From Trypanosoma brucei (Eukaryota), in contig CM000207.1 in assembly GCA_000002445.1 (NCBI GenBank), positions 2,432,001 through 2,496,000 on the forward strand: a stretch of 64,000 bases of DNA. The letters are read 5' to 3'. Below, one piece after another: positions 1 through 40,307 of the stretch. Under the pieces are notes generated by a model. That model saw nothing but the letters and a program-made list of their open reading frames with translations, ran no database searches and was not told the DNA's origin. A program made the position numbers and the translations under genes. Each line of letters begins with the position of its first letter. Within the stretch, counting starts at the first letter, position 1.

Positions 1-1700
1 ATTCCCTTTCCTCTGCGGTACCCTTCTTATCCTTTTTAAATGATGAACTTAGTGTGAATTAGAAGAGTGCACGAATTTATCCAAAATAGAGTGGGTGTAA
101 TGGGAAGACACATCACGTAGAGGACACTCCGTATGCTAGCAGCTGATGCTTACGGTTGGAAGTAGAAGAAGCATTCAGTATACGAGGCGTAGTGCCACCT
201 TGCCATAAATTGGCTGTCGGAGTTGACAAGAGATCGCTGAAGTAGCAACTCTCTAAGGGCCACATAATGAAGATGTCCGCCATAATGTCGCTAAGACACA
301 CATGAAAACATGCACAGTGGTCGTGCCAAAGTATCCTCACCACAGTAGCAACACAAAAAGTAAGGGTGAGTTCCTATGGAAGAAAAATTATGCGATATTC
401 CGGCAAGGCACTTGAAACCCTTTAGTAGCAGACGGTATCCAAGGATTGTTAACAACAAACATGGTATGAGAATCACAACACACAAGGGGAAAGAGGAACA
501 ATTACTCTTTGAACCTCAATACTTTTAGAGGGTCGAACTCTCATCTGTCATCTGTCCCACGTGGCACTCTCACACACCACATCAAGGGTGATGAGAGAAT
601 TTTTGTGTAAGCATATGATGGTCAGTGAGTTGGTGAAAAATGGAGCATATTTGCAGCACTGCCGTTTTTGTTATTTTCTACTCCAGCACTTTTGATACAG
701 TGGGCCATATCAGGGTTGTGCAATAAATGCGTAAAGTTGGTGGAGAAAAGTCTAACACCCTCTGCACCGCATCCTTACCAACAGAATGAGTAGCAGCAGC
801 TCCCTGAGATAAATCACTTCCCCCTTACAAGAATAGTTTAACAGAGGGCAGGCGAAAGGCACAGTGTTCGGCCTTTCAATGTTAAAAGCTGCAGTTAACT
901 CCATTTATTTTCTTACTAAACATCCCAAGACACAGCTTAAAGCATGGATTCTTTGTGGAAGACTTGACAGTGAGGAGAGGAAACGTGGATGGCTTTTCAG
1001 AAGGAACTGAATGTTATAGCTGTGATAGGAATCCGTATTTACTTCGGGAAAGTCGTCACGAAGAAAACAGGGTGTGAGGTGTTGGGAGGACATTTGGGGT
1101 CACGGTAATGGGGATACGCGGCGATGCCCACTCCATGCTGAATTTATATCCACACCGTTAATGTACTGGCAAATCGGATATCCGCAGCGCCTTCTTACCC
1201 ATAGAGTGCAAAGTGAGGAGTACAAACTGACATTGGCACTTTTCATTACTTCCAACATGTATTACACACGCGTTACTCGGATGTAAGATATCGTGTGATT
1301 ACAGGAGTTATTTCAAATATTAATAAAGCTATGGAGAGTAATAGTCTCCTTATCCTTTTTCACCCAATCTGTCATTTCATATAGTTTCTTCCATGAGAGT
1401 TCGATGATATGGAACAATAATGTGTGGTGGAGCATATGTGTGAAAAGAGGAACTGACGGCACTTTTACTCCTGTCACCGGGTAAAATGAATTAGGAGCTA
1501 TGGAAGACTTTCTCATTGAGGGTTATGACGCTGCCTCACTATTTCATGGGATTCGTGCGAAGGGAAAACAGAAAAATTATGTTTCAGCAGTAGTCATGAA
1601 AATCTTACTTTTTTGTACCTGAAGTAATAACCCTGAGAACACTGAAACACTTCCATGAGACGTGTAGAAGAATGTCGAAATGCCAAGAAAGATCATAATA

Positions 1701-1735
1701 CTTCACTTTTTGGTTCTTTTTTAATTTTGCTAAAG
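1701..1735 (+). promoter_or_regulatory. Polypyrimidine tract plus AG, a putative trans-splice acceptor for VSG-like gene A
   Basis: cttcactttttggttcttttttaattttgct followed by aaAG about 25 nt before the ATG at 1761. This is the kinetoplastid splice-acceptor architecture. Confidence 0.5.
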
Positions 1736-1760
1736 ACAAGGGTGAAACATCCAAGGCACT

Positions 1761-3185
1761 ATGTACTGGGTTGTAGTTTTACTGACGGTACTCCACAGTT
1801 GTCATCGGGCGCTTGGTAAGGAGGATATAGTGAATCAAAAGGAGTTTGAAGCGTTGTGTCGAATGATAAATTGGGCAGAAGAAAGACTTGAGCACATAAA
1901 AGTAACGAAACGAGTTACCCAAGAAGCTCTGAAAATAGGCGTAAGATATCTTGAAGTGGCCGGTGAGGAAGAGTGTAGACACATCGCCAAAGCGCAGGAA
2001 GATTCTTGTACCAAGAAAATGGAGGATCGGAAAAGGAATTGCGGGCTGTACAAAAATTTTTGGGAAGAGGCGCAGAAAGCAGTGAAGGAAAGGGCTTTTA
2101 GCGGAGAGAAGCTGGAGCGTAAAATAGACGCTTTGGGGGAGCATACAGTGGACGAAATAAAAAAAAAGGGAATGTACGGGGCAGATATATATCATGATGT
2201 TGAAGCGAAGAGGCCGTCAGGAAATATGAGAAAAATGGAGGAGCACCTCATTAAAGCTCTTTATGGAATGGAATATTTTAGTGAAGATATAAAAGGAGGG
2301 GATTCAGATCGAAGCAGAGTCTGCGGGCAAAATCTGCGTAACAATAAGGCAACGGGGGGTTGGTCACTAGCGGTGGATTTGTTGTGCTTGTGTGCAACCC
2401 ACAACTCCTGGAAAGGTAGGAAGAAGGTTTGCTGCGCAGACTGCAGTACAGGAGAGAATAGAGACGAATGGAATCCAGAGTCAAACGAGGCACCACGCTG
2501 GGATTTTCTGAAACAGAAGTGTGCAGGCCGTCACCGAAATCGTCACGACATGATCGAAAAACTGAGTGAAGCGGAAGAGAATCTTATGAAAACAGTAACT
2601 AAAATAGGCACAATACCATATACACATACGTACGTGCTTGGAACCGCTGTAAATAGCAGAATAAAACCATGCGGGGCTGATATAAACAAGCAGCAGGAAA
2701 TATGTGTGCACTACGGATCAGATAACGGAACGAAACTTCCCTGGTTAAAAGCGTTGCAAAAGGTAGAAAAGGAAATGAAACTTACGCTGAAAGATAAACA
2801 AGATAAGTCAGCTAAGCTCAAGCGGATGGAAGAACTAAATCAAGAGATCGAAAGCTTAATCAGAGGTGATACAGGGCGAGGAGGCCAACGGGGAAGACAG
2901 AAACGCAGTGTCAATCCCGAGAACAGTGTCCCAGAAACCCCAGCTGACCCGAGCGATCCGACACAGTCAGTCCCACATACCAATGAAAAAAAGCGAAGTG
3001 TAAGGAAACCGATATCAACAGGTAACGGTGCAACCAAAAGCTACAATAGCGAAGAGGATGATTCTTACGAATATGAGTGCGAGGGAGAAAACTCAGCATG
3101 CTCAGATTCGCCAGCAAAACCAACAGTAAAAAACAGCAAAAGTGCTATAAATTGTCCACTGGGATTAATTTTGCTTTTGGTATAA
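1761..3185 (+). CDS. VSG-like, cysteine-rich variant surface glycoprotein family member A (474 aa)
   Basis: ATG start. N-terminal hydrophobic signal peptide (MYWVVVLLTVLHS). Numerous conserved cysteines (EALCR, DLLCLCA, VCCADC, KQKC). Short hydrophobic C-terminal tail (CPLGLILLLV) that could be a GPI signal. A paralog lies in the adjacent repeat. The VSG-family assignment comes from general architecture, not motif-level proof. Confidence 0.55.
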   Translation: MYWVVVLLTVLHSCHRALGKEDIVNQKEFEALCRMINWAEERLEHIKVTKRVTQEALKIGVRYLEVAGEEECRHIAKAQEDSCTKKMEDRKRNCGLYKNFWEEAQKAVKERAFSGEKLERKIDALGEHTVDEIKKKGMYGADIYHDVEAKRPSGNMRKMEEHLIKALYGMEYFSEDIKGGDSDRSRVCGQNLRNNKATGGWSLAVDLLCLCATHNSWKGRKKVCCADCSTGENRDEWNPESNEAPRWDFLKQKCAGRHRNRHDMIEKLSEAEENLMKTVTKIGTIPYTHTYVLGTAVNSRIKPCGADINKQQEICVHYGSDNGTKLPWLKALQKVEKEMKLTLKDKQDKSAKLKRMEELNQEIESLIRGDTGRGGQRGRQKRSVNPENSVPETPADPSDPTQSVPHTNEKKRSVRKPISTGNGATKSYNSEEDDSYEYECEGENSACSDSPAKPTVKNSKSAINCPLGLILLLV

Positions 3186-6100
3186 ACGAAAAGCTCCAAC
3201 ACAAGGTAGAGAAAAAAAGAGGATATGGAATTTGTTGTGTTTGCGGCACCTCAATATTCCACACGGAGGGAGATGGTGTGACTTTCAAAACCTGTACAGG
3301 AGACATGTGATGCGTCAGAGCAATCGTCAACTCCAGTAGAGTCATCCAGGAAACCGCAACGAGAGAGGGAGATGTTGGGAGGGTTTATGCTTCGTGATAC
3401 TGGTAATGCGTATTGTTGAGAACCTTTTCATACCAAAAGGAACACTACGAAAATTGAAAGCATTTTCTAATGATGGGAAAGCACATAGAGGCTATAAACA
3501 ACTAAAATGTACCAACCGTACTGAGTGGGTGGTGTGAAAATAAAAAAGTATATGTTGTAGAGAATGTCGATACCGGAAGGCTACAAGAATGGAAGGAATA
3601 ATAAATACAGAAAAAGAGACGCCATACTTTTCACTGAGCTATCTACAGGACATGGAAGGGATATTTCCAATGAGGAAGTTGGGAAGGTTTCAAACAAAAA
3701 AGGAGAAAACATATGAGTGATAATGTTAATGTAAGTAACGGAAGGAAGTGTTGCTTTGGAAAAAGACAGACAAATAACTGAAAGAGGGTTGACTGGAGAA
3801 AATGATGCCAGGTGAAACACATAAAAAAATGAGTTCGGGAAGCATGGATATTTCGAACTTGGAACATAAAGACAAAAGAGCAGGAAAAGTTGTGGGAAAT
3901 GGCATGTTATATATTTGCATCGTAGTCGCAAAAAACTGTTTGTTGTGTTGAATGAGTGGAGAAACTGAGGCACTCACGGCCGCTGAATAAGAAAATGGAG
4001 AAGGAAAGCCATGGAAAGTAATGAGGGAATAGCTTGAAAGGCACGCACACACAGACACACACACGTGATAGCGGGGTGTGGAAAAGCAAGGAGTGGAACG
4101 AAAGCCTTCATCGCTATTATGGCTAAGAAATACGACACCACCAGAATGCACTGCAGTGTTTAAAGGCAGACGAATTATTAAAGGGATCAGTATTATTGGC
4201 TGAAATACCTGTGGTATTAACTTTTGCGGTGCTTGAAGTGATGGCATGAAAAAGATTAGAAACCTCTCTTTGTTGTTAGGTCGGATGCATGGAAAAAAGA
4301 GAGTGCGTGGCTGCTCTAAGAATGTAACGTGCAAACTACAAGGCAGTAATAAAAGACCCCAAAGCAATTCCATGGCCAAAAGGACTTGATGGCGCCGTGG
4401 TTCAGACGAGAAATATCACACTACAGAATCCGACATTGCATGGGACGCAACTGCGTATCAACGCGGCAGTGATATAAGCTATCAAAACAAAAAATTATGC
4501 AATCACGGAGGTTTTTCATGCAGCAGCGTTGTCTACTATGGAAAATGCAGTAACCACTGAAAAGGAGGAAACATGCTTCAAGGAGCAAAAAGTAGCAGTG
4601 ATTGCTGTAACAACAAGATTGTGAGTGGAAATAAAACAAACAGGAAGCTAAACTACGACCCAAGGATATTTAGAGTAGTATCGACACTGCCAAAGCATCA
4701 CTAATGAATGCATATTTACCGAATGCGAATATATATGTATATGTGAATATATACGTACATCAATATTCTACAAAAATAGTGCTTTGCAGCGTGTGAGACT
4801 TTCAAAACATTTTTTGTGGAACACTTAAGCATAATTGTGATTAATGGAAAATTGATCTATGGATACCTTCTTTTTGCTACATGTATTTTGAATATGTTTC
4901 GGAAGAAAATGGTAATATCTCTGAGGTAAAATCTGGAACAATATAAAAATGCTAAAGGAAATTTCTGGGTTTTACAGCAGCAATATCATGAACTACAACA
5001 GTGGTTATAAGATCTGTAAGACGGAAGTACATGTTTGTGCCATTGTACGATTTTCTTGATATATGCATTGAAGTGATTTGAATGAATAGGGGTGCAAGTC
5101 TCATGAAACATGCTCTTCATTCAACCAAGGCTTTTTAGGAATATGCAGCAAAAGTCGAAAAATGACTGACTTGACAACCAAAATGGCGTCCCTATTCTAT
5201 TAGTGAAAATTCGAATGAAACAGCACATAATGGAACTACATGAAAATTCAAAGGAAATGTGATATCAAATTCCTAACCCGCTGTATCAAAATTCTCACAC
5301 ACCTTTCATAAAGGTATTTTAACATACATGTTTGAATTGAAAACACTCGATAAAATAATTTATGTGATCTGCGTATGAAATGTGTGATGAATTCTGCCCA
5401 ATCGTGCTAATATCGCTATTATTGTTAAACCTCACCTTACCATTTGTTTCAGCAAAGGCAAGAAGGAAATACTAAATGATGAAATACTGTTAAACGGTGA
5501 GGGTACAGAGGAATATCTTTTCCGGAACAGAGAGTAACTATCTGAGAGGAGTTTAATGAACCGTGTACAATGATAGTGTCAGCACACCAAGTCTTGGAAC
5601 AGCATAAGCAGGCTAGGATAACAAAAGGGGAAGAAGTGACATCTGGTGCTATACAGTAACTAGCTTCAGAAGCAAAAAGAAAAGCTGCTCAACCCTATGG
5701 AAGCAATGTAACCTCACAGCCGTAGCAGTAGCGTGACTAAGAAAGGAAATGTGAACTTAGAAAAAAACATATTGAACTCAAAGTGAAAAAGCAGAAGCAG
5801 TCAACCGCACAGAGGTATCAAAGGCATAACGTAGTTTGTTGGAAGGGGCGCCGAGAAAAATCAAGTTTTAGGCAGGTGATCCGGTATGGATGTATCACAC
5901 TGCGCACGGATGCCACAAACCAAGAGACTTCGAAGATATGAAAGGGAAGATTAGAGACTTCGCGTCTATCAGGCGTGCTTGAGTTAGGGACCGTAGTGGA
6001 AAGCAAACACAAACTGCTTACCCGAAGAGGGACAGTAACATGAACAATCCGAAATGGGTTTCAAACTATCTGGCACAATTCCATTTTGACTGGGTGTGAG

Positions 6101-9100
6101 AGAGAGTTCTTGGGACAGAGACAAACACGCGCGTTACTATAACCTTACAAATGACTCGAATACAGATATCAAATGCAATATTCTAAATGAACAATAAAAA
6201 CAAGGCTCAAGAGGCAACAATGCATAAGATTCCATAGAGTTACTTGACATTAGCGTGAGGGTAGAAAAGAAAATGAAGAGATTTTGTGAATCTGGAAAAG
6301 GAAATGTGAGAACGCAACCCTACAACAGCTTTTAAAATATCCCATGGACTAAAGCGTTGAATAGAATTGACGGGAAAATGAGCAACCTGACAGTGAGCAC
6401 AAACAAGGGAAACTATGGCAAAGCTTACATAGTTAAGCTGTGGCATGTCAATTTAATTAAAACGTGCCAGAGTGAAGAGAGGATGCCATTCAGAGTTATA
6501 AGAAAGCAAAGCCATGAAAGTGTAATTGACACGATTACTTTGTTACAATCCGATACAAATACGAGTAAAACACAAATAATAATTATGGGAGCAAGCCAGG
6601 AGTTACCTGTGAAGGTGAAATTACTGCTGATTATAATAGTGCGAGTGGCTCTTGACACAAATGCGAAAACCGTAAGCACAGTTCAGCGTCCACGAGCTCA
6701 AACTGTGAAACAGGATGAAAGCTGGTCAACGGTGAGATTGTGAGGCCACATCGCGAGTCAGTCATCTAAAACAGTGTGAATTTCGTTCAAACATTACCCA
6801 GGTTATATTTGTTTCTGTTTGTAAACGTGTGATTAGGCACTAAACTTCAATTCTAGCAGTGTTTGAATTTGTAGTACATTTGATATTTACCTCTTTTGTT
6901 GGAAAGCCAGTACGATTTTACGGTTTTGCCGATTGTTCAACGTAGTCTTGAAAGGGCTCAAAAGCACAACTACGTGACTTCTTAACATTTCATCAGAGAT
7001 GCACTACACTACACTACACGGGTGAGCACATCGCCGTAACTCGGGGGCAGGTTTACTTTTTTGACTCAGCATCAAAAAGGTAGAACCTTGAATATGATGC
7101 AAGTGGACCTCAGGTGGGGACTATCTGGCGCAAGAAAACGCTAGCAGAACTCGGGTCTCTCCCTCACTTGAAGTAAAAATTGTGTTGCATTGCGGGCTCC
7201 GGTGACGATTGCTCACTCTTTATTCAGATTTTTGAGGTTACCAAGCATGTAAAGCTAAGGAAGTGCAGTTCTTTCTCTGTAGTTGTTGGGTGAGCGGTTA
7301 TGTAAATGGGTATATCTTCACATTTTTATATTTCAATGTTGGCTTTTACGAATTTTTTTGTTTGCAATGCGTTGAAATTACACGACAACGACGTGGCTCA
7401 GGGTGTTACATGTACTGATTTAATTTTTAACGCCATCTCAGTTAGTGAAAGGATACGATGGCGATCCGCAAAGGGAAGGAAAGAGACTTCCGGATTGCAG
7501 AGACGTACCAAAAATTGACAGGAATTTAGGTTGCTCAAAGGAAAATAATTATGGATACTAAGCGGTAAGAGACTTTGTGCTGGAGAGGCTTCTGGGGTTG
7601 GATTCTGTTTGAACAGAAACTGCACGCCATGACTGATAAGTGAGCTGGTTCCCCTGAGGCATAGACGGGTGAATAATGCTTTCCTCAGTTTTTTTGAGGG
7701 GGAATTCGTCGCTGTAAAAGAGTCACCTGGTGTGAAAAGGATTGATAGAGCGTATCCGAACATTTTAACTATTCCAATCTAAGGAACAAGAAGTGTGAAA
7801 CATCTGGTGAGAGTAGAACGTCTTGTTACCTTAGCTCCCTTGGGCGGAACACAGATTTAGGGTCGTGTAAAAGAGGGACGAGAGGTGTGTCTTCCTATTG
7901 AAGTTGGAGGTCTCTAGCTGAAAAAAAGCCACTGATTCTAGTGACATGAATAGTCCAGACAATATCCCTAGGCGCGCGCACCTCACAGGCCGGCAGAATA
8001 GTAAAACTCAATTTTCACTACAATCCAGTTACCAAACTGTACATTTAATCTTACTCTTCCCACTGTAAAAACATATAAGTGTTATTCAACTCGGGTGCTG
8101 AATCCATACCAAAGCACATAGAGGTAACAAATAAAAGCCTCTATTTCTGTAAACTAATTCACACTTGCTTGCGAATGCACACCTCTCCTTTAACATTCGT
8201 AAGACAGTATAGGGTTTTACTGAAGTCCTGGTTTACGCAAGATATTATATACGGTTGTTTACGCAGTCACCTCTACTGGTTTCTGGACAAGAATGTGACC
8301 AGCTGCAAAGCATGGCTCTCAATGGGAGTGATTTGCGAGTCATGTTAAAGAGCCATGCTATGGAGACTCATACATGTGTATATTATTGTTGGGGTGATTC
8401 ACCAGCCCTTTTTACAAAATGTGTAATATTCTCTTGCATTTGGCAGTGAAGCATAAAAGCGTGCTGCTGTTGTACTGAATATATTCCCTTTCCTCTGCGG
8501 TACCCTTCTTATCCTTTTTAAATGATGAACTTAGTGTGAATTAGAAGAGTGCACGAATTTATCCAAAATAGAGTGGGTGTAATGGGAAGACACATCACGT
8601 AGAGGACACTCCGTATGCTAGCAGCTGATGCTTACGGTTGGAAGTAGAAGAAGCATTCAGTATACGAGGCGTAGTGCCACCTTGCCATAAATTGGCTGTC
8701 GGGGTTGACAAGAGATCGCTGAAGTAGCAACTCTCTAAGGGCCACATAATGAAGATGTCCGCCATAATGTCGCTAAGACACACATGAAAACATGCACAGT
8801 GGTCGTGCCAAAGTATCCTCACCACAGTAGCAACACAAAAAGTAAGGGTGAGTTCCTATGGAAGAAAAATTATGCGATATTCCGGTAAGGCACTTGAAAC
8901 CCTTTAGTAGCAGGCGGTATCCAAGGATTGTTAACAACAAACATGGTATGAGAATCACAACACACAAGGGGAAAGAGGAACAATTACTCTTTGAATCTCA
9001 ATACTTTTAGAGGGTCGAACTCTCATCTGTCATCTGTCCCACGGTGGCACTCTCACACACCACATCAAGGGTGATGAGAGAATTTTTGTGTAAGCATATG

Positions 9101-10183
9101 ATGGTCAGTGAGTTGGTGAAAAATGGAGCATATTTGCAGCACTGCCGTTTTTGTTATTTTCTACTCCAGCACTTTTGATACAGTGGGCCATATCAGGGTT
9201 GTGCAATAAATGCGTAAAGTTGGTGGAGAAAAGTCTAACACCCTCTGCACCGCATCCTTACCAACAGAATGAGTAGCAGCAGCTCCCTGAGATAAATCAC
9301 TTCCCCCTTACAAGAATAGTTTAACAGAGGGCAGGCGAAAGGCACAGTGTTCGGCCTTTCAATGTTAAAAGCTGCAGTTAACTCCCTTCATTTTCTTACC
9401 AAACATCCCAAGACACAGCTTAAAGCACGGATTCTTTGTGAAATACTCGTCGGTGAGGAGAGGAAACGTGGATGGCTCTTCAGAAGGGACTGAATGTTAT
9501 AGCTGTGATAGGAATCCGTATTTACTTCGGGAAAGTCGTCACGAAGAAAACAGGGTGTGAGGTGTTGAGAGGACATTTTGAGGTCACAGTAATGGGGAAA
9601 CGCGGCGACACCCACTCCATGTTGAATTTATATCCACACCGTTAGTGTACTGGCAAATCGGATATCCGCAGCGCCTTCTTACCCATAGAGTGCAAAGTGA
9701 AGAATACAAACTGACATTGGCACTTTTCATTACTTCCAACATGTATTACACACGCGTTACTCGGATGTAAGATATCGTGTGATTACAGGAGTTATTTCAA
9801 ATATTAATAAAGCTATGGAGAGTAATAGTCTCCTTATCCTTTTTCACCCAATCTGTCATTTCATATAGTTTCTTCCATGAGAGTTCGATGATATGGAACA
9901 ATAATGTGTGGTGGAGCATATGTGTGAAAAGAGGAACTGACGGCACTTTTACTCTTGTCACCGGGTAAAATGAATTAGGAGCTATGGAAGACTTTCTCAT
10001 TGAGGGTTATGACGCTGCCTCACTATTTCATGGGATTCGTGCGAAGGGAAAACAGAAAAATTATGTTTCAGCAGTAGTCATGAAAATCTTACTTTTTTGT
10101 ACCTGAAGTAATAACCCTGAGAACACTGAAACACTTCCATGAGACGTGTAGAAGAATGTCGAAATGCCAAGAAAGATCATAAT

Positions 10184-10218
10184 ACTTCACTTTTCTGTTT
10201 TTCTTTAATTTTGCTAAA
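10184..10218 (+). promoter_or_regulatory. Polypyrimidine tract plus AG, a putative trans-splice acceptor for VSG-like gene B
   Basis: This is the duplicated counterpart of 1701-1735 (cttcacttttctgtttttctttaattttgct ... aaag). Confidence 0.45.
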
Positions 10219-10232
10219 GACAAGGGTGAAGC

Positions 10233-11654
10233 ATGCGGAGAAGTATGTACTGGGTTGTATTTTTAGTGGCGGCACTACAGGGTATTCATTTAGTGTCGGG
10301 GCAGGATATAGTGAATCAAAAGGAATTTGAAGCGTTGTGTCGAATTGTAAATTGGGCAGAAAAGGGACTGAAGCAGATAACTTTGGCACGACAGGTTACC
10401 CAAGAAGCTCAGAAAATAGGCGTGAGATATCTTGAAGTAGTCGGTGAGGAAAATGCTGCTGAGCTCGCCAAAACACAAGAAGATTCTTGTGCATATAAAA
10501 GGGAGGTTGGCGGAAGGAATTGTGTGCTGTACAAAACATTTTGGCAACATGCGCAGGAAGCATTGAAGGGGACTGCCAGATCGTCAGTCCATCACAGAGC
10601 AATGAATACATTGGAATATCATACAATTGAAAAAATAAAAGAAAAAGCAATGCACGGGGCAGATATATATCACGATGTTGGAGCGGAGAGTCTGTCAGTA
10701 AAGGTGGAAAAGATTGAGCGGAAAATCAATCAAGCCCTTTATGGAATGGAATATTTCACCGAAGAAATAAAGCCAGGAGGAGACAGGAGCAGAGTGTGCG
10801 GTCAAAGCTCGCGTAGTGAAATGATTATTGGAGGAAACTCACTGGCCGTGGACTTTTTGTGCTTGTGTGCAATGCACAGTTCTTGGAATGGAATAAAGGT
10901 ATGCTGCACAGACTGCACTACGGGAGAGAATAGCAATGAATGGGACCCAGAATCAAACGGAGTACAACGTTGGAAATTTTTGAAACAGAAATGTGCTGAT
11001 CATAATCCAAATTATTATGACACGGAGAAAAGACTGCGTAATGCAAAACAGAATTTTATGGATACAGTAACAACGATACATGGAAGAGGAGGAAGAACTT
11101 TGTACAAACTTGGGAAAAAGCAAAGCAGTGAAGTAAACAACTGCGGGGCGGGTACTGGCCGCGGGCAAGGAATATGCGTGCTATATAAGGGACATGGAGA
11201 GGAGCTGCCCTGGATGAAAGCGTTGGTAGAGGTCGAAAATGAGATGGAAGTTCTGCTTCAAGACAAACACAATAAGTCAGCAAAACTAGAGAGAATTAAA
11301 GAGCTAAGTCAAGAGATAGAAAAGTTAATCAAAGGTGATCCGGGGCGAGGAGGCCAACGGGGAAGACAGAAACGCAGTGTCAATCCCGAGAACAGTGTCC
11401 CAGAAACCCCAGCTGACCCGAGCGATCCGACACAGTCAGTCCCACATACCAATGAAAAAAAGCGAAGTGTAAGGAAACCGATATCAACAGGTAACGGTGC
11501 AACCAAAAGCTACAATAGCGAAGAGGATGATTCTTACGAATATGAGTGCGAGGGAGAAAACTCAGCATGCTCAGATTCGCCAGCAAAACCAACAGTAAAA
11601 AACAGCAAAAGTGCTATAAATTGTCCACTGGGATTAATTTTGCTTTTGGTATAA
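10233..11654 (+). CDS. VSG-like, cysteine-rich variant surface glycoprotein family member B (473 aa). The alternative ATG at 10245 aligns with the start of A.
   Basis: Same architecture as A. The N-terminal roughly 360 aa are only about 60-70 percent identical to A, whereas the last roughly 110 aa (RGRQKRSVNPENS...SAINCPLGLILLLV) and both flanks are identical. Confidence 0.55.
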   Translation: MRRSMYWVVFLVAALQGIHLVSGQDIVNQKEFEALCRIVNWAEKGLKQITLARQVTQEAQKIGVRYLEVVGEENAAELAKTQEDSCAYKREVGGRNCVLYKTFWQHAQEALKGTARSSVHHRAMNTLEYHTIEKIKEKAMHGADIYHDVGAESLSVKVEKIERKINQALYGMEYFTEEIKPGGDRSRVCGQSSRSEMIIGGNSLAVDFLCLCAMHSSWNGIKVCCTDCTTGENSNEWDPESNGVQRWKFLKQKCADHNPNYYDTEKRLRNAKQNFMDTVTTIHGRGGRTLYKLGKKQSSEVNNCGAGTGRGQGICVLYKGHGEELPWMKALVEVENEMEVLLQDKHNKSAKLERIKELSQEIEKLIKGDPGRGGQRGRQKRSVNPENSVPETPADPSDPTQSVPHTNEKKRSVRKPISTGNGATKSYNSEEDDSYEYECEGENSACSDSPAKPTVKNSKSAINCPLGLILLLV

Positions 11655-14600
11655 ACGAAAAGCTCCAACACAAGGTAGAGAAAAAAAGAGGATATGGAAT
11701 TTGTTGTGTTTGCGGCACCTCAATATTCCACACGGAGGGAGATGGTGTGACTTTCAAAACTTGTACAGGAGACATGTGATGCGTCAGAGCAATCGTCAAC
11801 TCCAGTAGAGTCATCCTGGAAACCGCAACGAGAGAGGGAGATGTTGGGAGGGTTTATGCTTCGTGATACTGGTAATGCGTATTGTTGAGAACCTTTTCAT
11901 ACCAAAAGGAACACTACGAAAATTGAAAGCATTTTCTAATGATGGGAAAGCACATAGAGGCTATAAACAACTAAAATGTACCAACCGTACTGAGTGGGTG
12001 GTGTGAAAATAAAAAAGTATATGTTGTAGAGAATGTCGATACCGGAAGGCTACAAGAATGGAAGGAATAATAAATACAGAAAAAGAGACGCCATACTTTT
12101 CACTGAGCTATCTACAGGACATGGAAGGGATATTTCCAATGAGGAAGTTGGGAAGGTTTCAAACAAAAAAGGAGAAAACATATGAGTGATAATGTTAATG
12201 TAAGTAACGGAAGGAAGTGTTGCTTTGGAAAAAGACAGACAAATAACTGAAAGAGGGTTGACTGGAGAAAATGATGCCAGGTGAAACACATAAAAAAATG
12301 AGTTCGGGAAGCATGGATATTTCGAACTTGGAACATAAAGACAAAAGAGCAGGAAAAGTTGTGGGAAATGGCATGTTATATATTTGCATCGTAGTCGCAA
12401 AAAACTGTTTGTTGTGTTGAATGAGTGGAGAAACTGAGGCACTCACGGCCGCTGAATAAGAAAATGGAGAAGGAAAGCCATGGAAAGTAATGAGGGGATA
12501 TCTTGAAAGCCGCGCACACAGACACACACACGTGATAGCGGGGTGTGGAAAAGCAAGGAGTGGAACGAAAGCCTTCATCGCTATTATGGCTAAGAAATAC
12601 GACACCACCAGAATGCACTGCAGTGTTTAAAGGCAAACGAATTATTAAAGGGATCAGTATTATTGGCTGAAATACCTGTGGTATTAACTTTTGCGGTGCT
12701 TGAAGTGATGGCATGAAAAAGATTAGAAACCTCTCTTTGTTGTTAGGTCGGATGCATGGAAAAAAGAGAGTGCGTGGCTGCTCTAAGAATGTAACGTGCA
12801 AACTACAAGGCAGTAATAAAAGACCCCAAAGCAATTCCATGGCCAAAAGGACTTGATGGCGCCGTGGTTCAGACGAGAAATATCACACTACAGAATCCGA
12901 CATTGCATGGGACGCAACTGCGTATCAACGCGGCAGTGATATAAGCTATCAAAACAAAAAATTATGCAATCACGGAGGTTTTTCATGCAGCAGCGTTGTC
13001 TACTATGGAAAATGCAGTAACCACTGAAAAGGAGGAAACATGCTTCAAGGAGCAAAAAGTAGCAGTGATTGCTGTAACAACAAGATTGTGAGTGGAAATA
13101 AAACAAACAGGAAGCTAAACTACGACCCAAGGATATTTAGAGTAGTATCGACACTGCCAAAGCATCACTAATGAATGCATATTTACCGAATGCGAATATA
13201 TATGTATATGTGAATATATACGTACATCAATATTCTACAAAAATAGTGCTTTGCAGCGTGTGAGACTTTCAAAACATTTTTTGTGGAACACTTAAGCATA
13301 ATTGTGATTAATGGAAAATTGATCTATGGATACCTTCTTTTTGCTACATGTATTTTGAATATGTTTCGGAAGAAAATGGTAATATCTCTGAGGTAAAATC
13401 TGGAACAATATAAAAGTGCTGGAGAAAATTTCTGGGTTTTACAGCAGCAATATCATGAACTACAACAGTGGTTATAAGATCTGTAAGACGGAAGTACATG
13501 TTTGTGCCATTGTACGATTTTCTTGATATATGCATTGAAGTGATTTGAATGAATAGAGGTGCAAGTCTCATGGAACATGCTCTTCATTCAACCAAGGCTT
13601 TTTAGGAATATGCAGCAAAAGTCGAAAAATGACTGACTTGACAACCAAAATGGCTTCCCTATTCTATTAGTGAAAATTCGAATGAAACAGCACATAATGG
13701 AACTACATGAAAATTCAAAGGAAATGTGATATCAAATTCCTAACCCGCTGTATCAAAATTCTCACACACCTTTCATAAAGGTATTTTAACATACATGTTT
13801 GAATTGAAAACACTCGACAAAATAATTTATGTGATATGCATATGAAATGTGTGATGAATTCTGCCCAATCGTGCTAATATCGCTATTATTGTTAAACCTC
13901 ACCTTACCATTTGTTTCAGCAAAGGCAAGAAGGAAATACTAAATGATGAAATACTGTTAAACGGTGAGGGTACAGAGGAATATCTTTTCCGGAACAGAGA
14001 GTAACTATCTGAGAGGAGTTTAATGAACCGTGTACAATGATAGTGTCAGCACACCAAGTCTTGGAACAGCATAAGCAGGCTAGGATAACAAAAGGGGAAG
14101 AAGTGACATCTGGTGCTATACAGTAACTAGCTTCAGAGGCAAAAGGAAAAGCTGCTCAATCCTATTGAAGCAATGTGACCTGCTTTCCCCTAGTCCTATT
14201 CCTGTTGCTGCGGTGCATAATATTTTGACAGCAATGTGATGCAGCACTCAGCCATTAACACTCTAGCCATAAATGTAGTATCTAATATGTGAATGGTAAC
14301 CCATGGCGATACATTCCATATGGAACAATATCACATTGTTAAATATGCGCATGGAATTAAAACTATAGCACTAAATTGAAAATGAAAAATTAGAAAAGAA
14401 AAAGATATGAATTATCAAGAGAAGCATATTCTTCACTGACATTCATTTATTTTAATATAATCATAGTTTGATGTTATATTAAATAATAAAGAGCCCAATA
14501 TACTGTATAGCAGAATGGCAACAATTTCACTATAGCACCTGTAAATAAGAATATGTAATAAAATAAATGATAAAAAAATAAATCAAAATACAGCAAGCAC

Positions 14601-15586
14601 TGCACACTATATTCTTCTTTCATAACCATGTGGCAGCATATGAATAGCTTTGCTCATTGGGAAAAAAAACTAATAAAGTGGAACTTCACTCTGTTTCTGC
14701 CAAAACTGGTTAGTCAGCTGCATGTGGGAGTCAAAAAATTGAAAGTTTATTTTAAACAAATATAAAGGAAAGAGAAACTTAGGAAGAAGCCATGAGGGTA
14801 TCTGTGAGTTATGTGCTATTATGAAATAGAGTTAACTTCACAACCTTCAAGAAAGAGAGAATTTAATAATAAAAGTAAAATTCCAACGAAAATAAACTAA
14901 ATGAATATAACATACTTGTGCTGAAGCCTAACGTTCCAAATGTGAATGTAACAAACTGTCACTTAAAATGTAATGTTATCAATGCCTTCCTCTCCAAATG
15001 AAAGCTGCCACATCTCAATGTGTTCTTTCAAATTAATGTAACGGAACCAGATATGTTTGTATAATATTCTACAATGTCATTTGGCATTGTCCGATGCTCA
15101 CTAAAAAAAAAACTTATTCGTTTTGTTGCGATGTAGCTGTTGTCAGTGTTGTGCTCTTTTTCTTTTTCTTTTATTATTTTTTAACATACCGCTCCGCACT
15201 TCCGTAATCCCTTCAATATTCCTGTAGTTCCCATCATAAAAGATACAAAAGAAATCCATCAAAATAAAGTAACTGGAGTCCAAGATGTTGTAGAGCGCAA
15301 TGTATTTATTTTGAGTAATGGAATCCTGTGACATCAGAGACAATCATCTGCAATGAGTAAACTGAAACGTTCATTGACTTATGCCACTAAAGTAATAATT
15401 AAATTGTCAAATACACATTCCCATCGTGTAGTAAGTAATTCAAACAATTCTGTGACCACATGAAATACTTGAAGAAAAAGGAAACGCATACAATGCATAA
15501 GCCATTAGTAAAGTATAAATACAGTTTTTGGTATCGAGTCCATCATATGTTACAAAGCCGCATGTCACTAACACGCAAAAGCACAA

Positions 15587-17359
15587 TTAATTCATCATCA
15601 TATTTCTAATCATCACCGATAGAGCTTGGCAACTGTACGATTCGATAACTCCAGCATTTCCATTCACTCTTATAACCTTTACCAACTTGTCCGTAACTTC
15701 ATTGTTTTGCCAGACACCAATATCTCCAATAATATCACTATAGGAATATTCACCCGACTTCTTCATAGTTTCCAACGCATCATGCACACTTTTCAGGCGC
15801 CATTCATAACAGCCTAAACCAAATATATAACGAGGCAGAGGCCCAATTGAATTAATACGTCCCTCCACTATTCTCCACTCATCTTCCATTTCCTTCCTCA
15901 ATTCGTATCTTCTTTTGTTGAATACCTTTTCCCTTGCATGTATTGACAGTTTTTTCCATGCCATAAATGCCTTGATGTCACACACATCATCGCAGTTCAT
16001 AATAATTTGGCGGCCTCCAGTATTTGTAGTCCACTCATCAAAATGGCCACTATTCGGGGAGGTGAGGAGAGTAACACCCCAAATATCAGAGGGCAGTTGA
16101 GTGTATAATAATTTTTGCATCATCCCACTTATGTCTATAATGATGTGCCCTCTTTTTTCATATTTCATATTATTTATTATCCGGACAGCAACTCCCGAGT
16201 CTTCGTACCGCACAACCCTCCCTCTTTCATCATCCTTTCTGTTGTATATCAGGAAGGAAACTTCTCCCAAGAAATATGCAACAACATCAAGCATTCCTTC
16301 ATTGAAGTGAAACAGTGAATAAAATAAAAATGATCCAAGGCCACACGATTTTCCAATACCGTGAGTACCAATAACAACATGTATCGGTGGCCTCACAACT
16401 GACCTGTCCACCCACCATGCTTTCAGCACTTGTTGGATTATATACCACACACGCATGATTTCGCGACGGATATATACATGCTGGGAAACTGCCTTGCACT
16501 TCTCACTGTAACCCAATACAAACCTGTTGTGTGGCCAACCTCTCTCCGATGTAAGAACAATAATTTCCAAACCATTGGGTCTTTCCTCCATTTCCGAATC
16601 AACATTCGCAGGTTCAGGAGTTACATCCACCTCTTCTTCGGTCCATATGCGCCGCGGTCTTCCACCGAATACCTTCATGCCAAGTGGCTCTTCATCATAA
16701 CCCGACACCACATAACTCCACGTCGCATTGCAAATGGAATCATACACTCCTTCAAGGTTTACAGCACCACCAGCTGTTTGAGCAGCTCGCTTTTCCGCTC
16801 TCTTGGCGGCCGTCACCGCAGCATCCAACCTTCCCCTCGCCATGGGACCAACAAATTCTCTTATTTCCCCTCTTCCCTTCTCCTCCCACTGCCTGAGGTA
16901 GTAAATTTCTTTTTCATCAAGATACCTTGCTTTCCCATTCATTTCAGAGAATTGGTTATATAATTCTTTATATTCCTCAAACTCATCAGTGCCTTGTATA
17001 TCCTCAAGAATCTCAGCATCAGCAATATATCTTCTGGGATTCTTAACAAAAATGGGCATCCTAACATTTTCTGCTTCAGCCACCGCAAAAGTCCCGCCAA
17101 CGAACTCCTGAATAAAGTCGTTCACCGTCATTTTACGCAGAACCGCATAATCTTCCAGCAACACATCTTCAACTTCACTGTTCATCGTCCAGTTGGGCCC
17201 CTCTTCAGTTCTCTGCCGTATTTGTGGAGGCTGAGCAGCAGGAGGAGGCGGCGGTACATTTTCATCCCGTGGTCTCCTCATGGCCACTTCAACGTTACCC
17301 GCCATTTGTTGGTTTGCATTATTTCTTTGTGGAGGTGCAGGTCTGTTTGCCCTTGGCAT
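15587..17359 (-). CDS. RHS: Retrotransposon hot spot (RHS) protein, C-terminally truncated (590 aa; probable pseudogene or partial gene)
   Basis: ATG start confirmed (cat at 17357-17359 on plus). RHS-family hallmarks are present: the N-terminal ...NWTMNSEVEDVLLE...MTVNDFIQEFVGG block, LEGVYDSICNATWSYVV, IIVLTSERGWPH, the P-loop VVIGTHGIGKS, IIMNCDDVCDIKAF, GPLPRYIF and KLVKVIRV. Full-length RHS proteins are about 700-900 aa, so about 250 aa of the C-terminus are missing. Confidence 0.7.
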   Translation of the reverse strand: MPRANRPAPPQRNNANQQMAGNVEVAMRRPRDENVPPPPPAAQPPQIRQRTEEGPNWTMNSEVEDVLLEDYAVLRKMTVNDFIQEFVGGTFAVAEAENVRMPIFVKNPRRYIADAEILEDIQGTDEFEEYKELYNQFSEMNGKARYLDEKEIYYLRQWEEKGRGEIREFVGPMARGRLDAAVTAAKRAEKRAAQTAGGAVNLEGVYDSICNATWSYVVSGYDEEPLGMKVFGGRPRRIWTEEEVDVTPEPANVDSEMEERPNGLEIIVLTSERGWPHNRFVLGYSEKCKAVSQHVYIRREIMRVWYIIQQVLKAWWVDRSVVRPPIHVVIGTHGIGKSCGLGSFLFYSLFHFNEGMLDVVAYFLGEVSFLIYNRKDDERGRVVRYEDSGVAVRIINNMKYEKRGHIIIDISGMMQKLLYTQLPSDIWGVTLLTSPNSGHFDEWTTNTGGRQIIMNCDDVCDIKAFMAWKKLSIHAREKVFNKRRYELRKEMEDEWRIVEGRINSIGPLPRYIFGLGCYEWRLKSVHDALETMKKSGEYSYSDIIGDIGVWQNNEVTDKLVKVIRVNGNAGVIESYSCQALSVMIRNMMMN

Positions 17360-29692: not shown

Positions 29693-29914
29693 CTATACCA
29701 CCTTTTCGATTTTAACTAGGGACATAGAGGCATCTACCAAGTATCGGTTAGCGGTACGTAGCCCAGTCACCTCTGCGCGACATATGGGACACACAGTTGC
29801 AGTTGAAACACAACCTCGGCAAAATATATGCGTACACGGCAATAGTTCTACAGGATCTGACCACTGCTCCAAGCAGATGACGCAAGCCACAACATCAGAG
29901 GCGGGTGCTACCAT
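29693..29914 (-). pseudogene. Inverted partial duplicate of the RING-finger exon of the 40102-41121 gene (73-aa fragment; C3HC4 RING intact, no GTPase part)
   Basis: Encodes MVAPASDVVACVICLEQWSDPVELLPCTHIFCRGCVSTATVCPICRAEVTGLRTANRYLVDASMSLVK, which matches the N-terminus of the 40102 gene at about 98 percent. It diverges after SLVK and terminates. Beyond the duplicated 5' leader it has no upstream polypyrimidine tract plus AG. Confidence 0.7.
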
Positions 29915-29984
29915 TGGTAATGGTGAGAAGGGGACAAGCCCCGGCCGCCAATAAATAGGTGCTAAAAACGCCTTAGGAACCGCT
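29708..29984. repeat. Left arm of the inverted repeat (277 bp, about 98 percent identical). The partner arm is at 40031-40307.
   Basis: The reverse complement of ccggccgccaataaataggtgctaaaaacgccttaggaaccgc (29941-29982) equals 40033-40074. The match continues through the RING coding region to the ctagttaaaat / attttaactag boundary. Confidence 0.85.
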
Positions 29985-40101: not shown

Positions 40102-40307
40102 ATGCCAGCACCCGCCTCTGATGTTGTGGCTTGCGCCATCTGCTTGGAGCAATGGTCAGATCCTGTAGAACTATTGCCGTGTACGCATATATTTTGCCGA
40201 GGTTGTGTTTCAACTACAACTGTGTGTCCCATATGTCGCGCAGAGGTGACTGGGCGACGTACCGCTAACCGATACTTGGTAGATGCCTCTATGTCCCTAG
40301 TTAAAAT
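40031..40307. repeat. Right arm of the inverted repeat (partner of 29708-29984). It covers the 5' leader and the RING-finger coding region.
   Basis: See the left arm. Confidence 0.85.

What the first reader, a model, noticed from the sequence alone, without database searches (positions are those of the whole stretch)
2858..3185. The shared C-terminal module of the VSG-like genes is atypical for a canonical VSG C-terminal domain
The identical last roughly 110 aa are hydrophilic and low-complexity (PENSVPETPADPSDPTQSVPHTNEKK...). They contain dibasic motifs (RQKR, KKR) that look like kexin/furin-type processing sites. They carry only four cysteines (YECEGENSACSDS...INCP). They end in a very short hydrophobic tail (LGLILLLV, 8-9 residues, or about 13 residues after a candidate omega Ser). 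Canonical T. brucei VSG C-terminal domains are 4- or 8-Cys structured domains with 17- or 23-residue GPI signals. This suggests either a distinct VSG-related or ESAG2-like family or a non-brucei species. It may also be a surface protein that is proteolytically processed.
Basis: partly seen in the sequence, partly recalled or inferred. Interest (0 to 1): 0.5.

Follow-up and report, generated by a model that had tools for sequence, protein, structure and literature searches.

The report
Known VSG-related genes, degenerate C-terminal tail
The shared tail belongs to two tandem copies of an already catalogued Trypanosoma brucei "VSG-related" surface-protein gene. It is a worn-down version of the usual VSG membrane-anchoring end, kept identical between copies by gene conversion, so the finding is real but largely ordinary.

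Summary
The window is T. b. brucei TREU927 chromosome 9. Genes 1761..3185 and 10233..11654 are annotated "VSG, atypical" and belong to the chromosome-internal VSG-related (VR) group.

**What holds.** The C-terminus is not a canonical VSG C-terminal domain: Pfam PF10659 gives no hit and only 2 mature cysteines remain. The last 103 aa are identical between the copies (0/312 nt differences).

**What needs correcting.**
- There are three cysteines, not four, and one lies in the presumed cleaved signal.
- The "very short" hydrophobic tail (8 residues after a Pro) is the same length as in canonical 17-residue VSG GPI signals.
- The species is T. brucei.

**What the module is.** It consists of a furin-like RQKR motif, a hydrophilic linker, a C-x6-C hairpin and a GPI-type tail. 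The last 39 aa are homologous to other VR C-termini (hhalign 92%, E 5e-7).

**Why the copies are identical.** This is concerted evolution. The flanks are 98–100% identical, but a sharply bounded 1.16-kb cassette encoding the N-terminal domain is only 70% identical and is mosaic.

**Unproven.** GPI anchoring is likely but untested. Cleavage at RQKR is an untested minority reading.

The parts
1761..3185 (+). VR gene copy 1 (474 aa), annotated 'VSG, atypical, putative' in T. b. brucei TREU927
   Evidence: ORF. 100% identical to P0001. Pfam VSG_B aa 7-357, E 1.4e-85.
10233..11654 (+). VR gene copy 2 (473 aa). It is the positional counterpart of the single T. b. gambiense gene next to the RHS gene.
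   Evidence: ORF. P0003. Pfam VSG_B E 7e-87. L001 8567-17778 aligns to window 8807-18009.
1711..2873 (+). Variable cassette: about 50 nt of 5' leader, the signal peptide and the N-terminal VSG_B domain up to codon 371. It is the only strongly diverged part of the repeat unit.
   Evidence: 70.0% nt identity between units, against 98-100% in the flanks, with sharp boundaries at 1711 and 2873. dS 0.71, dN/dS 0.45. Mosaic ancestry, runs test P<5e-5.
2874..3182 (+). Shared C-terminal module, copy 1 (aa 372-474, 103 aa)
   Evidence: 0/312 nt differences from copy 2. No PF10659 hit at E<=10. The family-specific HMM scores 200-212 bits on the 9 members and <=6.8 bits on 184 other VSG/VR proteins.
11343..11651 (+). 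Shared C-terminal module, copy 2
   Evidence: Identical string to 2874..3182.
2895..2906 (+). Furin/kexin-like motif R-Q-K-R (aa 379-382) at the junction between the last N-terminal-domain helix and the linker
   Evidence: RQKRSV is invariant in all 9 family members. Shuffle probability 0.039. R-x-[KR]-R occurs in the last 125 aa of only 2 of 93 other VSG/VR representatives. The GPI-less VR relatives P0010, P0011 and P0013 end at about this position.
2988..2996 (+). Second basic motif K-K-R (aa 410-412) inside the hydrophilic linker
   Evidence: Read from the sequence. Only partly conserved: it is KKQ in P0004.
3078..3101 (+). C-x6-C mini-hairpin CEGENSAC (aa 440-447), the remnant of the second half of a 4-Cys VR/VSG C-terminal subdomain
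   Evidence: It aligns with the third and fourth Cys of other VR C-termini (CEWNGDAC, CDWEEGTC, CEWNGSEC). hhalign 92.4%, E 5.3e-7 over 39 columns.
3135..3182 (+). Candidate GPI-addition signal. One omega candidate is S459; another is the SACSDS cluster at 3093..3110. The hydrophobic tail PLGLILLLV is at 3156..3182.
   Evidence: The tail length and hydropathy equal those of canonical 17-residue VSG signals, and Pro is at -8 from the C-terminus in both. C465 is Gly in Tbg and Teq. No GPI predictor was available.
1..1710 (+). Homogenised 5' flank of repeat unit 1 (matches 8483..10192 of unit 2)
   Evidence: 98.4% identity. Tandem duplication detected by self-BLAST.
3186..5714 (+). Homogenised 3' flank/UTR of unit 1 (matches 11655..14181). 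It lacks the VSG 3'UTR 16-mer.
   Evidence: 99.05% identity. No TGATATATTTTAACAC within 3 mismatches near either gene.
8483..14181 (+). Repeat unit 2 of the tandem VR array
   Evidence: Self-BLAST: 1-2524 = 8483-10996 and 2736-5714 = 11205-14181.

Best explanation
The region is the C-terminal end of two tandem members of a chromosome-internal VSG-related (VR) gene array on T. b. brucei chromosome 9. Each protein has these parts, in order:
- a signal peptide;
- a b-type VSG N-terminal domain;
- an invariant polybasic junction (RGRQKR);
- a Ser/Pro/Glu/Asn/Lys-rich hydrophilic linker of about 55-60 aa, probably a flexible stalk;
- an acidic patch followed by a C-x6-C hairpin, which is what is left of the 4-Cys subdomain seen in other VR and VSG C-termini;
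- a C-terminal GPI-addition signal whose Pro + 8-residue hydrophobic tail is built like the canonical 17-residue VSG signal.

**Most likely fate (inferred).** The protein enters the ER, the tail is exchanged for a GPI anchor, and the N-terminal domain is displayed at low abundance on the bloodstream-form surface, flagellar pocket or endosomes.

**Why the two copies are identical here (shown).** This is concerted evolution. Gene conversion homogenises the whole 8.5-kb repeat unit except a sharply bounded 1.16-kb cassette encoding the N-terminal domain. That cassette is old (dS about 0.7) and mosaic.
For: **Identity and family**
- 100% match to a TREU927 'VSG, atypical' protein. There are nine family members, all in the T. 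brucei group.
- The closest relatives by exhaustive HMMER are VR proteins from chromosomes 1, 2, 3, 7, 9 and 11.
- PMC2771046 lists five VR genes (Tb09.244.2200-2330) beside the RHS gene Tb09.244.2180. They are 3-7.6-fold higher in bloodstream than in procyclic forms.
- PMC2854126 describes a chromosome 9 internal island with segmental duplication of an atypical VSG.

**Not a canonical VSG cassette**
- No PF10659 hit, no 70-bp repeats and no 3'UTR 16-mer.

**C-terminus is a derived VR type**
- MAFFT and hhalign against other VR C-termini give 92.4%, E 5.3e-7 over 39 columns covering C-x6-C, spacer and tail.

**GPI plausibility**
- The tail equals the canonical 17-type tail in length and hydropathy.
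- Nine hydrophobic residues at the extreme C-terminus cannot span a membrane.
- C465 is not conserved.
- The GPI signal of another VR, ESP5/Tb927.5.291b, works on sfGFP, and VR proteins are surface-enriched (PMC11298655 and PMC4587319).

**Concerted evolution**
- Identity is 98.4% / 70.0% / 100% / 99.05% across upstream flank / cassette / C-terminal coding / 3' flank.
- dS is 0 in the C-terminus against 0.71 in the N-terminal domain.
- Informative sites are clustered, runs test P<5e-5, and the best-matching paralogue switches along the protein.
Against: - No GPI predictor could be run. No omega candidate obeys the VSG rule set (omega S/D/N, omega+2 S, omega+7 K, 17 or 23 residues). [SDN]-x-S occurs at S448 (26-residue signal) and S459 (15-residue signal), and neither has K at +7.
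- No member of this particular array was found in the held text of the surface-proteome supplements. Protein expression and surface location of this subfamily are therefore undocumented here.
- The mapping of window genes to the Tb09.244.22xx-23xx identifiers is inferred from neighbours and gene count, not read from an annotation.
- The AlphaFold model was poor overall (pLDDT 44.8), so low confidence in the C-terminus does not prove disorder.
- hhalign similarity to the canonical 17-type signal itself is not significant (9 columns, E 0.03).
Confidence: 0.7

Rival explanations
1. Processed surface or secreted protein. A Golgi/endosomal subtilisin-like convertase cleaves after RGRQKR (and perhaps KKR). 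This releases the VSG-like N-terminal domain as a soluble product and leaves an acidic GPI-anchored stub of about 70-80 aa.
For: - RQKRSV is invariant in 9/9 members while neighbouring residues vary.
- The motif has shuffle P 0.039, and two [KR]R[SA] motifs have P 0.009.
- R-x-[KR]-R occurs in only 2/93 other VSG/VR C-termini, and one of those is another VR linker.
- The motif sits exactly at the domain junction.
- The closest N-terminal-domain relatives (P0010, P0011, P0013 = Tb927.7.180) are natural GPI-less proteins that end about there.
- The C-terminal stub has only two mature Cys, spaced to pair with each other, so nothing obvious would tether a cleaved N-terminal domain.
Against: - There is no experimental cleavage evidence.
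- The literature search found no kexin/furin-type processing pathway described for T. brucei.
- The tests on the motif are post hoc.
- The region is Lys/Arg-rich anyway: 4 dibasic pairs, shuffle P 0.10.
- Invariance is confounded by gene conversion of the whole module.
- The second motif is not conserved (KKQ in P0004).
Confidence: 0.12
2. Decaying or non-functional 'atypical VSG' relics. The C-terminus has lost two cysteines and standard GPI spacing, so the products are not correctly anchored (degraded, ER-retained or secreted by default). The array persists only through duplication and conversion.
For: - Annotators labelled them 'atypical' precisely because maturation is doubtful.
- dN/dS is 0.55 in the C-terminus against the Tbg homologue, so constraint is not strong.
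- The subfamily was absent from the held surface-proteome tables.
- Copy number varies between subspecies: 1 in Tbg, 5 on the TREU927 chromosome.
Against: - All nine ORFs are intact across three subspecies, with invariant signal-peptide core, Cys framework, RQKR and tail.
- dN/dS is 0.4-0.45 over an N-terminal domain with dS 0.5-0.8. This means purifying selection acted over a long time.
- The mRNAs are bloodstream-enriched, if the identifier mapping holds.
- Other VRs with the same architecture are surface-associated.
Confidence: 0.13
3. A gene from a non-brucei trypanosome, or an ESAG2-family member.
For: The architecture (b-type N-terminal domain, unstructured hydrophilic C-terminus, short tail) resembles T. 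congolense VSGs, which are also hit (P0056, P0080). [quoted passage not shown]
Against: - 100% identity to a TREU927 chromosome 9 protein.
- All family members are from the T. brucei group.
- T. congolense VSGs score only E 1e-16 to 1e-14, against 2e-52 to 5.7e-32 for the first eight other hits, seven of them T. brucei VRs.
- None of the 20 relatives whose names were looked up is ESAG2.
Confidence: 0.02

Closest known systems
T. brucei VSG-related (VR) proteins on other chromosomes, e.g. P0014 (chr 9), P0015 (chr 3), P0019/Tb927.3.2500, P0017 (chr 11), P0012 (chr 2), P0016 (chr 1)
   Same: - b-type N-terminal domain; these are the best non-self HMMER hits, E 2e-52 to 1e-28.
- Chromosome-internal location and no 70-bp repeats.
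- Hydrophilic linker, then a Cys hairpin, then about 26-27 residues ending in P-L-x-L-F-L-L-L.
- The last 39 aa are homologous (hhalign 92%, E 5e-7).
   Different: - This subfamily keeps only the last two of the four C-terminal-domain cysteines.
- Its roughly 65-aa linker has no detectable similarity elsewhere.
- It carries an invariant RQKR at the junction.
- The C-terminal HMM scores <=6.8 bits on all other VRs.
Canonical b-type T. brucei VSGs with a 17-residue GPI signal (e.g. P0077, P0109, P0125: ...TTGSNSFVI(N/K)KAPLLLAVLLF)
   Same: VSG_B N-terminal domain. The hydrophobic tail is Pro + 8 residues with the same mean hydropathy, and Pro is at -8 from the C-terminus.
   Different: - No 4- or 8-Cys C-terminal domain: PF10659 gives no hit, against E 1e-22 for P0041.
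- No omega S/D/N with S at +2 and K at +7 at 17- or 23-residue spacing.
- No 70-bp repeats and no 3'UTR 16-mer.
- Core-chromosome location.
GPI-less VR proteins (P0010 chr 3 VR; P0011 chr 11 VR; P0013 = Tb927.7.180)
   Same: These are the closest N-terminal-domain relatives (E 2e-52, 9.5e-47, 5.6e-39). They end just after the terminal coiled-coil helix, at about the position of RQKR here.
   Different: They have no linker, no Cys hairpin and no hydrophobic tail.
T. congolense VSGs (P0056 Q26979, P0080 Q26860)
   Same: b-type N-terminal domain followed by a short Cys-poor hydrophilic C-terminus and a very short hydrophobic tail. The literature notes that VRs resemble them structurally (PMC3605285).
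   Different: They are distant in sequence (E about 1e-16 to 1e-14), have a different tail motif (...LPWTLLI), come from a different species and are true variant antigens.
Fam1 (Tb927.6.1310 array), T. brucei-specific b-VSG-derived flagellar-pocket protein
   Same: A polymorphic tandem array at a strand-switch region, with a single copy in T. b. gambiense. It is b-VSG-derived, lacks the canonical C-terminal domain, has a predicted GPI anchor and is bloodstream-enriched (PMC3605285).
   Different: Fam1 proteins are 347 aa and their copies differ by only 0.1-3.2% in nucleotide sequence. Here the N-terminal-domain cassettes differ by 30% in nucleotides while the flanks are identical. No direct sequence comparison was made.

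Membership tests
Canonical (expression-competent) T. brucei VSG | A- or B-type N-terminal domain | tested here: met
   Pfam VSG_B PF13206, aa 7-357, E 1.4e-85 and 7.3e-87. PDB VSG1954 (8b3w) E 3.3e-7, N-terminal domain only.
Canonical (expression-competent) T. brucei VSG | C-terminal domain with 4 or 8 cysteines (types 1-6; Pfam PF10659) | tested here: not met
   Three Cys after aa 372, two of them in the mature part. No PF10659 hit at E<=10, while the control P0041 scores 1.4e-22. hhalign against 23-type C-terminal ends shows no similarity. Definition from PMC1868767.
Canonical (expression-competent) T. brucei VSG | GPI signal of 17 or 23 residues with omega S/D/N, omega+2 Ser and omega+7 Lys (PMC11298655) | tested here: not met
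   Read from the sequence. [SDN]-x-S occurs only at S448 (26 residues) and S459 (15 residues), and neither has K at +7. Only the Pro + 8 hydrophobic tail matches the 17-type. No predictor was run.
Canonical (expression-competent) T. brucei VSG | Upstream 70-bp repeats and the conserved 16-mer in the 3'UTR | tested here: not met
   No tandem array upstream of either gene. No 16-mer within 3 mismatches near either gene. The 16-mer criterion rests on my own knowledge of VSG 3'UTRs.
Canonical (expression-competent) T. brucei VSG | Subtelomeric array, minichromosome or expression-site location | tested here: not met
   The window carries housekeeping-type genes (RING-Rab GTPase, nucleoside transporter) on alternating strands. 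The Tbg locus is syntenic.
VSG-related (VR) genes (Marcello & Barry 2007, as described in PMC2771046) | Chromosome-internal, typically at strand-switch regions, and lacking 70-bp repeats | tested here: met
   Description in PMC2771046.
VSG-related (VR) genes | Sequence groups with annotated VR proteins rather than with the bulk of VSGs | tested here: met
   Of the ten relatives named (eight of them among the top ten non-self hits of 1.84e9 representatives), eight carry VR annotations and Tb927.7.180 is called VR in PMC4619645; P0014 is labelled 'VSG, putative'. The C-terminus is homologous to VR C-termini. No formal phylogeny was built.
VSG-related (VR) genes | Listed as VR in the original catalogue | tested here: inconclusive
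   PMC2771046 lists Tb09.244.2200/2240/2280/2310/2330 as VR beside RHS Tb09.244.2180. Five family members lie on the 3,057,547-bp TREU927 chromosome, with an RHS gene adjacent in the window. The identifier mapping is inferred. The primary paper is not held.
VSG-related (VR) genes | Expressed outside the expression site; protein at the bloodstream-form surface | not testable with these tools
   Literature only. mRNAs are 3-7.6-fold higher in bloodstream than in procyclic forms. VR proteins as a class are surface-enriched. This array was not found in the held supplement text.
ESAG2 | Sequence membership of the ESAG2 clade of b-type VSG-like genes | not tested
   No ESAG2 sequence was compared directly. 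None of the 20 relatives whose names were looked up is called ESAG2.
Proprotein-convertase (kexin/furin) substrates | R-x-K/R-R motif in an exposed region of a secretory protein | tested here: met
   RQKR at aa 379-382, directly after the last N-terminal-domain helix and invariant in 9/9 members.
Proprotein-convertase (kexin/furin) substrates | Demonstrated cleavage, and a convertase present in the secretory pathway of the organism | not testable with these tools
   The literature search returned nothing for T. brucei.

The most novel reading that the evidence does not exclude
The invariant RGRQKR|SV at the junction between the N-terminal domain and the linker is a genuine convertase site. On this reading, the chromosome 9 VR array encodes pro-proteins whose diversified, mosaic VSG-like N-terminal domains are shed as soluble factors. 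Those products would be equivalent to the naturally GPI-less VRs such as Tb927.7.180. The conserved C-terminal module would then have two jobs. It would serve as a disposable GPI-anchored delivery stalk. With the homogenised flanks, it would also serve as the 3' recombination anchor for cassette exchange within a chromosome-internal array.
Probability: 0.1. Interest if true: 0.55.

Novelty: already known. Interest (0 to 1): 0.22.

Why it matters
The functions of VR proteins remain unknown, although they are T. brucei-specific, bloodstream-enriched and surface-associated.

This analysis adds three modest points for this array:
- The 'atypical' C-terminus is a degenerate VR-type C-terminal domain with a GPI-type tail built like the canonical 17-residue signal. 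It is probably anchor-competent rather than defective.
- A furin-like site is invariant at the domain junction.
- The array behaves like a miniature VSG system: a variable, mosaic N-terminal-domain cassette sits between homogenised flanks. This qualifies the published view that internal VSG islands escape frequent gene conversion.

None of this changes what the genes are. They are already annotated and catalogued.

Tried and rejected
- **DNA of the other TREU927 array members.** The look-up of encoding contigs had no record for P0001, P0004, P0006 or P0009. Nucleotide analyses were therefore limited to the two window copies and the Tbg locus L001.
- **Profile search with the full-length family alignment in the 5.8e9 database.** It returned only the same nine proteins.
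- **C-terminus-only profile search in the same database.** It returned nothing at E<=10, not even the family itself, so it failed its own positive control and is uninformative. A local hmmsearch with the same profile gave 200-212 bits on the family and <=6.8 bits on others.
- **AlphaFold2 on the 9-sequence alignment.** Mean pLDDT was 44.8. The folded middle of the N-terminal domain is as poorly predicted as the C-terminus, so the model gives no evidence on disorder, and I ran no fold search.
- **Primary papers not held.** Marcello & Barry 2007 and Jackson et al. 2012.
- **Literature search for kexin/furin processing in T. brucei.** No relevant paper.
- **Searches for papers or proteome entries naming this array.** I tried Tb09.244.22xx-23xx and Tb927.9.157xx-158xx. 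Only the 2009 microarray paper names them.
- **Considered and rejected.**
  - A transmembrane anchor: 9 hydrophobic residues are too few.
  - A canonical VSG donor cassette: no 70-bp repeats and no 16-mer.
  - A non-brucei origin.
Full report
**What is at the coordinates.** The window holds two + strand ORFs, 1761..3185 (474 aa) and 10233..11654 (473 aa). Both carry a full-length Pfam VSG_B N-terminal domain (aa 7-357; E 1.4e-85 and 7.3e-87) and no other Pfam domain. They are 65% identical overall, but identical from G372 to the C-terminus. The first ORF is 100% identical to a T. b. brucei TREU927 protein annotated 'variant surface glycoprotein (VSG, atypical), putative' on a 3,057,547-bp chromosome. 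Only nine proteins at 57-100% identity exist in the 5.8-billion-sequence database. All come from T. b. brucei, T. b. gambiense and T. equiperdum.

**Checking the observation.**
- The identical stretch is 103 aa (window 2874..3182 = 11343..11651), with 0 differences in 312 nt.
- The region is hydrophilic (mean hydropathy -1.48, against -0.89 for the N-terminal domain) and only slightly reduced in complexity.
- RQKR (aa 379-382) and KKR (aa 410-412) are present.
- There are three cysteines, not four: C440, C447 and C465. C465 lies next to the hydrophobic tail and is Gly in the gambiense and equiperdum homologues. The mature module therefore has two Cys, spaced C-x6-C.
- The hydrophobic tail is indeed 8 residues after a proline. 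Canonical b-type VSGs with the 17-residue signal (...SNSFVI[NK]KAPLLLAVLLF) also have Pro + 8 hydrophobic residues and the same mean hydropathy (2.76-2.91 against 2.86). That feature is not atypical.

**Is it a canonical VSG C-terminal domain?** No.
- Pfam's VSG C-terminal model (PF10659) gives no hit to the module even at E<=10. It scores 1.4e-22 on a canonical control (P0041) and 0.0012 on a single-subdomain VSG.
- VSGdb's authors defined 'atypical' as intact genes whose C-terminal domain lacks the full 4 or 8 cysteines or whose GPI signal is doubtful (PMC1868767). This explains the existing annotation.
- The published rule for VSG signals is 17 or 23 residues, omega Ser/Asp/Asn, omega+2 Ser and omega+7 Lys (PMC11298655). 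No candidate here meets it. [SDN]-x-S occurs at S448 (26-residue signal) and S459 (15-residue signal), and neither has Lys at +7.
- There are no 70-bp repeats upstream and no VSG 3'UTR 16-mer near either gene.
- The neighbours are core-chromosome genes: an RHS protein, a RING-Rab GTPase and a nucleoside transporter.

**What family it is.** An exhaustive HMMER search of 1.84 billion representatives with the family profile gave 167 hits.
- Only the family's own cluster covers the C-terminus.
- The next best hits match only the N-terminal domain (profile positions about 1-370).
- Where names are available, all but one are T. brucei 'VSG-related' proteins from chromosomes 1, 2, 3, 7, 9 and 11 (P0014 is labelled 'VSG, putative'). 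They include Tb927.7.180 and Tb09.v1.0300.
- T. congolense VSGs appear much further down the list.
- PMC2771046 lists five VR genes, Tb09.244.2200-2330, next to the RHS gene Tb09.244.2180. They are 3-7.6-fold higher in cultured bloodstream forms than in procyclic forms.
- That layout fits what is seen here. Five family members lie on the TREU927 chromosome. An RHS gene is adjacent at 15587..17359. ESAG4- and ESAG6-like genes lie upstream in the syntenic gambiense locus. This identifier mapping is my inference.
- PMC2854126 had already noted a chromosome 9 internal VSG island with segmental duplication of an atypical VSG in T. b. brucei.

**Anatomy of the module.** Aligning the last ~65 aa with the C-termini of other VRs places C440 and C447 on the third and fourth cysteines of their 4-Cys subdomain (CEWNGDAC, CDWEEGTC, CEWNGSEC). 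The following ~27 residues align with their spacer and P-L-x-L-F-L-L-L tail. The positions of the first two cysteines are occupied by non-Cys residues here. Supporting comparisons:
- Profile-profile comparison with other VR C-termini gives 92.4% probability, E 5.3e-7 over 39 columns.
- Against canonical 17-type ends, only the 9-residue tail aligns (E 0.03, not significant).
- Against 23-type ends, nothing aligns.
- The upstream ~65 aa (GRGGQRGRQKRSV...SEEDDS) have no detectable relative. A module-only HMM scores 200-212 bits on the nine members and <=6.8 bits on 184 other VSG/VR sequences.

The module therefore reads: polybasic junction, a family-specific hydrophilic linker, an acidic patch, a half-domain C-x6-C hairpin, and a GPI-type signal.

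**Why the two copies are identical.** Self-comparison shows an 8.47-kb tandem duplication: 1..5714 against 8483..14181. Identity between the two units is:

| Segment | Window coordinates | Identity |
|---|---|---|
| Upstream flank | 1-1710 | 98.4% |
| Variable cassette | 1711-2873 | 70.0% |
| C-terminal coding | 2874-3185 | 100% |
| 3' flank | 3186-5714 | 99.05% |

- The boundaries lie about 50 nt before the ATG and at codon 371.
- In the cassette, dS is 0.71 and dN/dS is 0.45. In the C-terminus, dS is 0.
- Because synonymous sites differ too, selection on the protein cannot explain the contrast. Either the flanks have been homogenised or cassettes have been exchanged by gene conversion.
- T. 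b. gambiense has a single copy beside the RHS gene. Its N-terminal domain is a patchwork relative to the two window copies. Sites shared with copy 1 or copy 2 are strongly clustered: 90 runs among 287 informative sites, with 0 of 20,000 permutations as low.
- Across all nine proteins, the best-matching paralogue changes from segment to segment.
- The gambiense C-terminus differs from the window copies (dS 0.20, dN/dS 0.55) and resembles a second module variant present in other TREU927 members.

**How it most likely works.**
- *Shown:* a secretory signal peptide-like N-terminus, a b-type VSG N-terminal domain, and a C-terminal hydrophobic segment too short to span a membrane.
- *Inferred:* the tail directs GPI addition. 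The omega site is either in the SACSDS cluster (aa 445-450) or at S459. The first would give a signal length inside the 21-32-residue range predicted for non-VSG GPI proteins of the surface proteome (PMC11298655). The protein would then be displayed at low abundance on the bloodstream-form surface, flagellar pocket or endosomes, like other VRs. ESP5/Tb927.5.291b is endosomal and its GPI signal works on sfGFP. VR proteins as a class are enriched in surface-labelled preparations.
- *Caveats:* I found no member of this array in the held supplement text of that proteome, and no GPI predictor could be run.

**The processing idea.**
- RQKRSV is invariant in all nine members while adjacent residues vary.
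- A furin-type R-x-[KR]-R arises in 3.9% of shuffles of the module.
- It occurs in the last 125 aa of only 2 of 93 other VSG/VR representatives, and one of those is another VR linker.
- It lies exactly where the closest N-terminal-domain relatives, the GPI-less VRs P0010, P0011 and Tb927.7.180, end naturally.
- Against it: the tests are post hoc, conservation is confounded by gene conversion, the second motif is not conserved, and I found no literature on convertase-type processing in T. brucei.

I rate this reading at about 0.1.

**Verdict.** The genes and their 'atypical' C-termini are already annotated and catalogued as VSG-related. The new details are a degenerate VR-type half-domain, a GPI tail built like the canonical 17-residue class, an invariant junction motif, and cassette-like mosaic evolution between homogenised flanks. 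These are refinements, not a new kind of system.

Noticed in passing
window 1711..2873 vs 10181..11342; L001 10001..11431: The N-terminal-domain coding region behaves as a sharply bounded variable cassette (70% nt identity) between flanks that are 98-100% identical. It is mosaic: informative sites against the T. b. gambiense gene are clustered (P<5e-5), and the best-matching paralogue switches along the protein. [quoted passage not shown]
   Followed up: partly
L001 (T. b. gambiense FN554972.1:2102341-2123771) vs window 1..18009: T. b. gambiense has one VR gene next to the RHS gene, where TREU927 has at least two units in the window and five family members on the chromosome. ESAG4-like and a-type VSG/ESAG6-like genes lie upstream in Tbg.
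   Followed up: partly
proteins P0010, P0011, P0013 (Tb927.7.180): The closest N-terminal-domain relatives of this family are VR proteins with no C-terminal extension or hydrophobic tail. They stop just after the terminal helix, about where this family has RQKR.
   Followed up: partly
protein P0017 (chr 11 VR), linker 'NNREKRESKG': A second VR subfamily also has an R-x-K-R motif in its hydrophilic linker. Only 2 of 93 other VSG/VR representatives have one in the last 125 aa.
   Followed up: no
window 29693..29914 (-) and 29705..29986 vs 40030..40310: An inverted 282-bp duplicate (97% identical) of the 5' end of the RING-Rab GTPase gene (40102..41121). It forms a 73-aa ORF that encodes only the RING finger.
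   Followed up: partly
window 59504..60133 and 60151..61017 (+): Two adjacent ORFs (209 and 288 aa) encode leucine-rich repeats, separated by 17 nt and in different reading frames. They may be one ESAG8/LRRP-like gene interrupted by a frameshift, or two genes.
   Followed up: no
window 31279..32736 (-): A 485-aa secretory-looking protein with many N-x-S/T sequons. It has only a sub-threshold match to the LBP/BPI/CETP N-terminal domain (E 0.0025, 18 bits against a cut-off of 28.8). It may be ESAG5-like.
   Followed up: no
window 5715..8482: About 2.8 kb between the two repeat units has no counterpart after unit 2 and no ORF of 150 aa or more. Its origin (part of a longer unit or an insertion) was not examined.
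   Followed up: no
window 41533..42720 (+): A 395-aa ORF with an N-terminal hydrophobic segment and no Pfam match.
   Followed up: no
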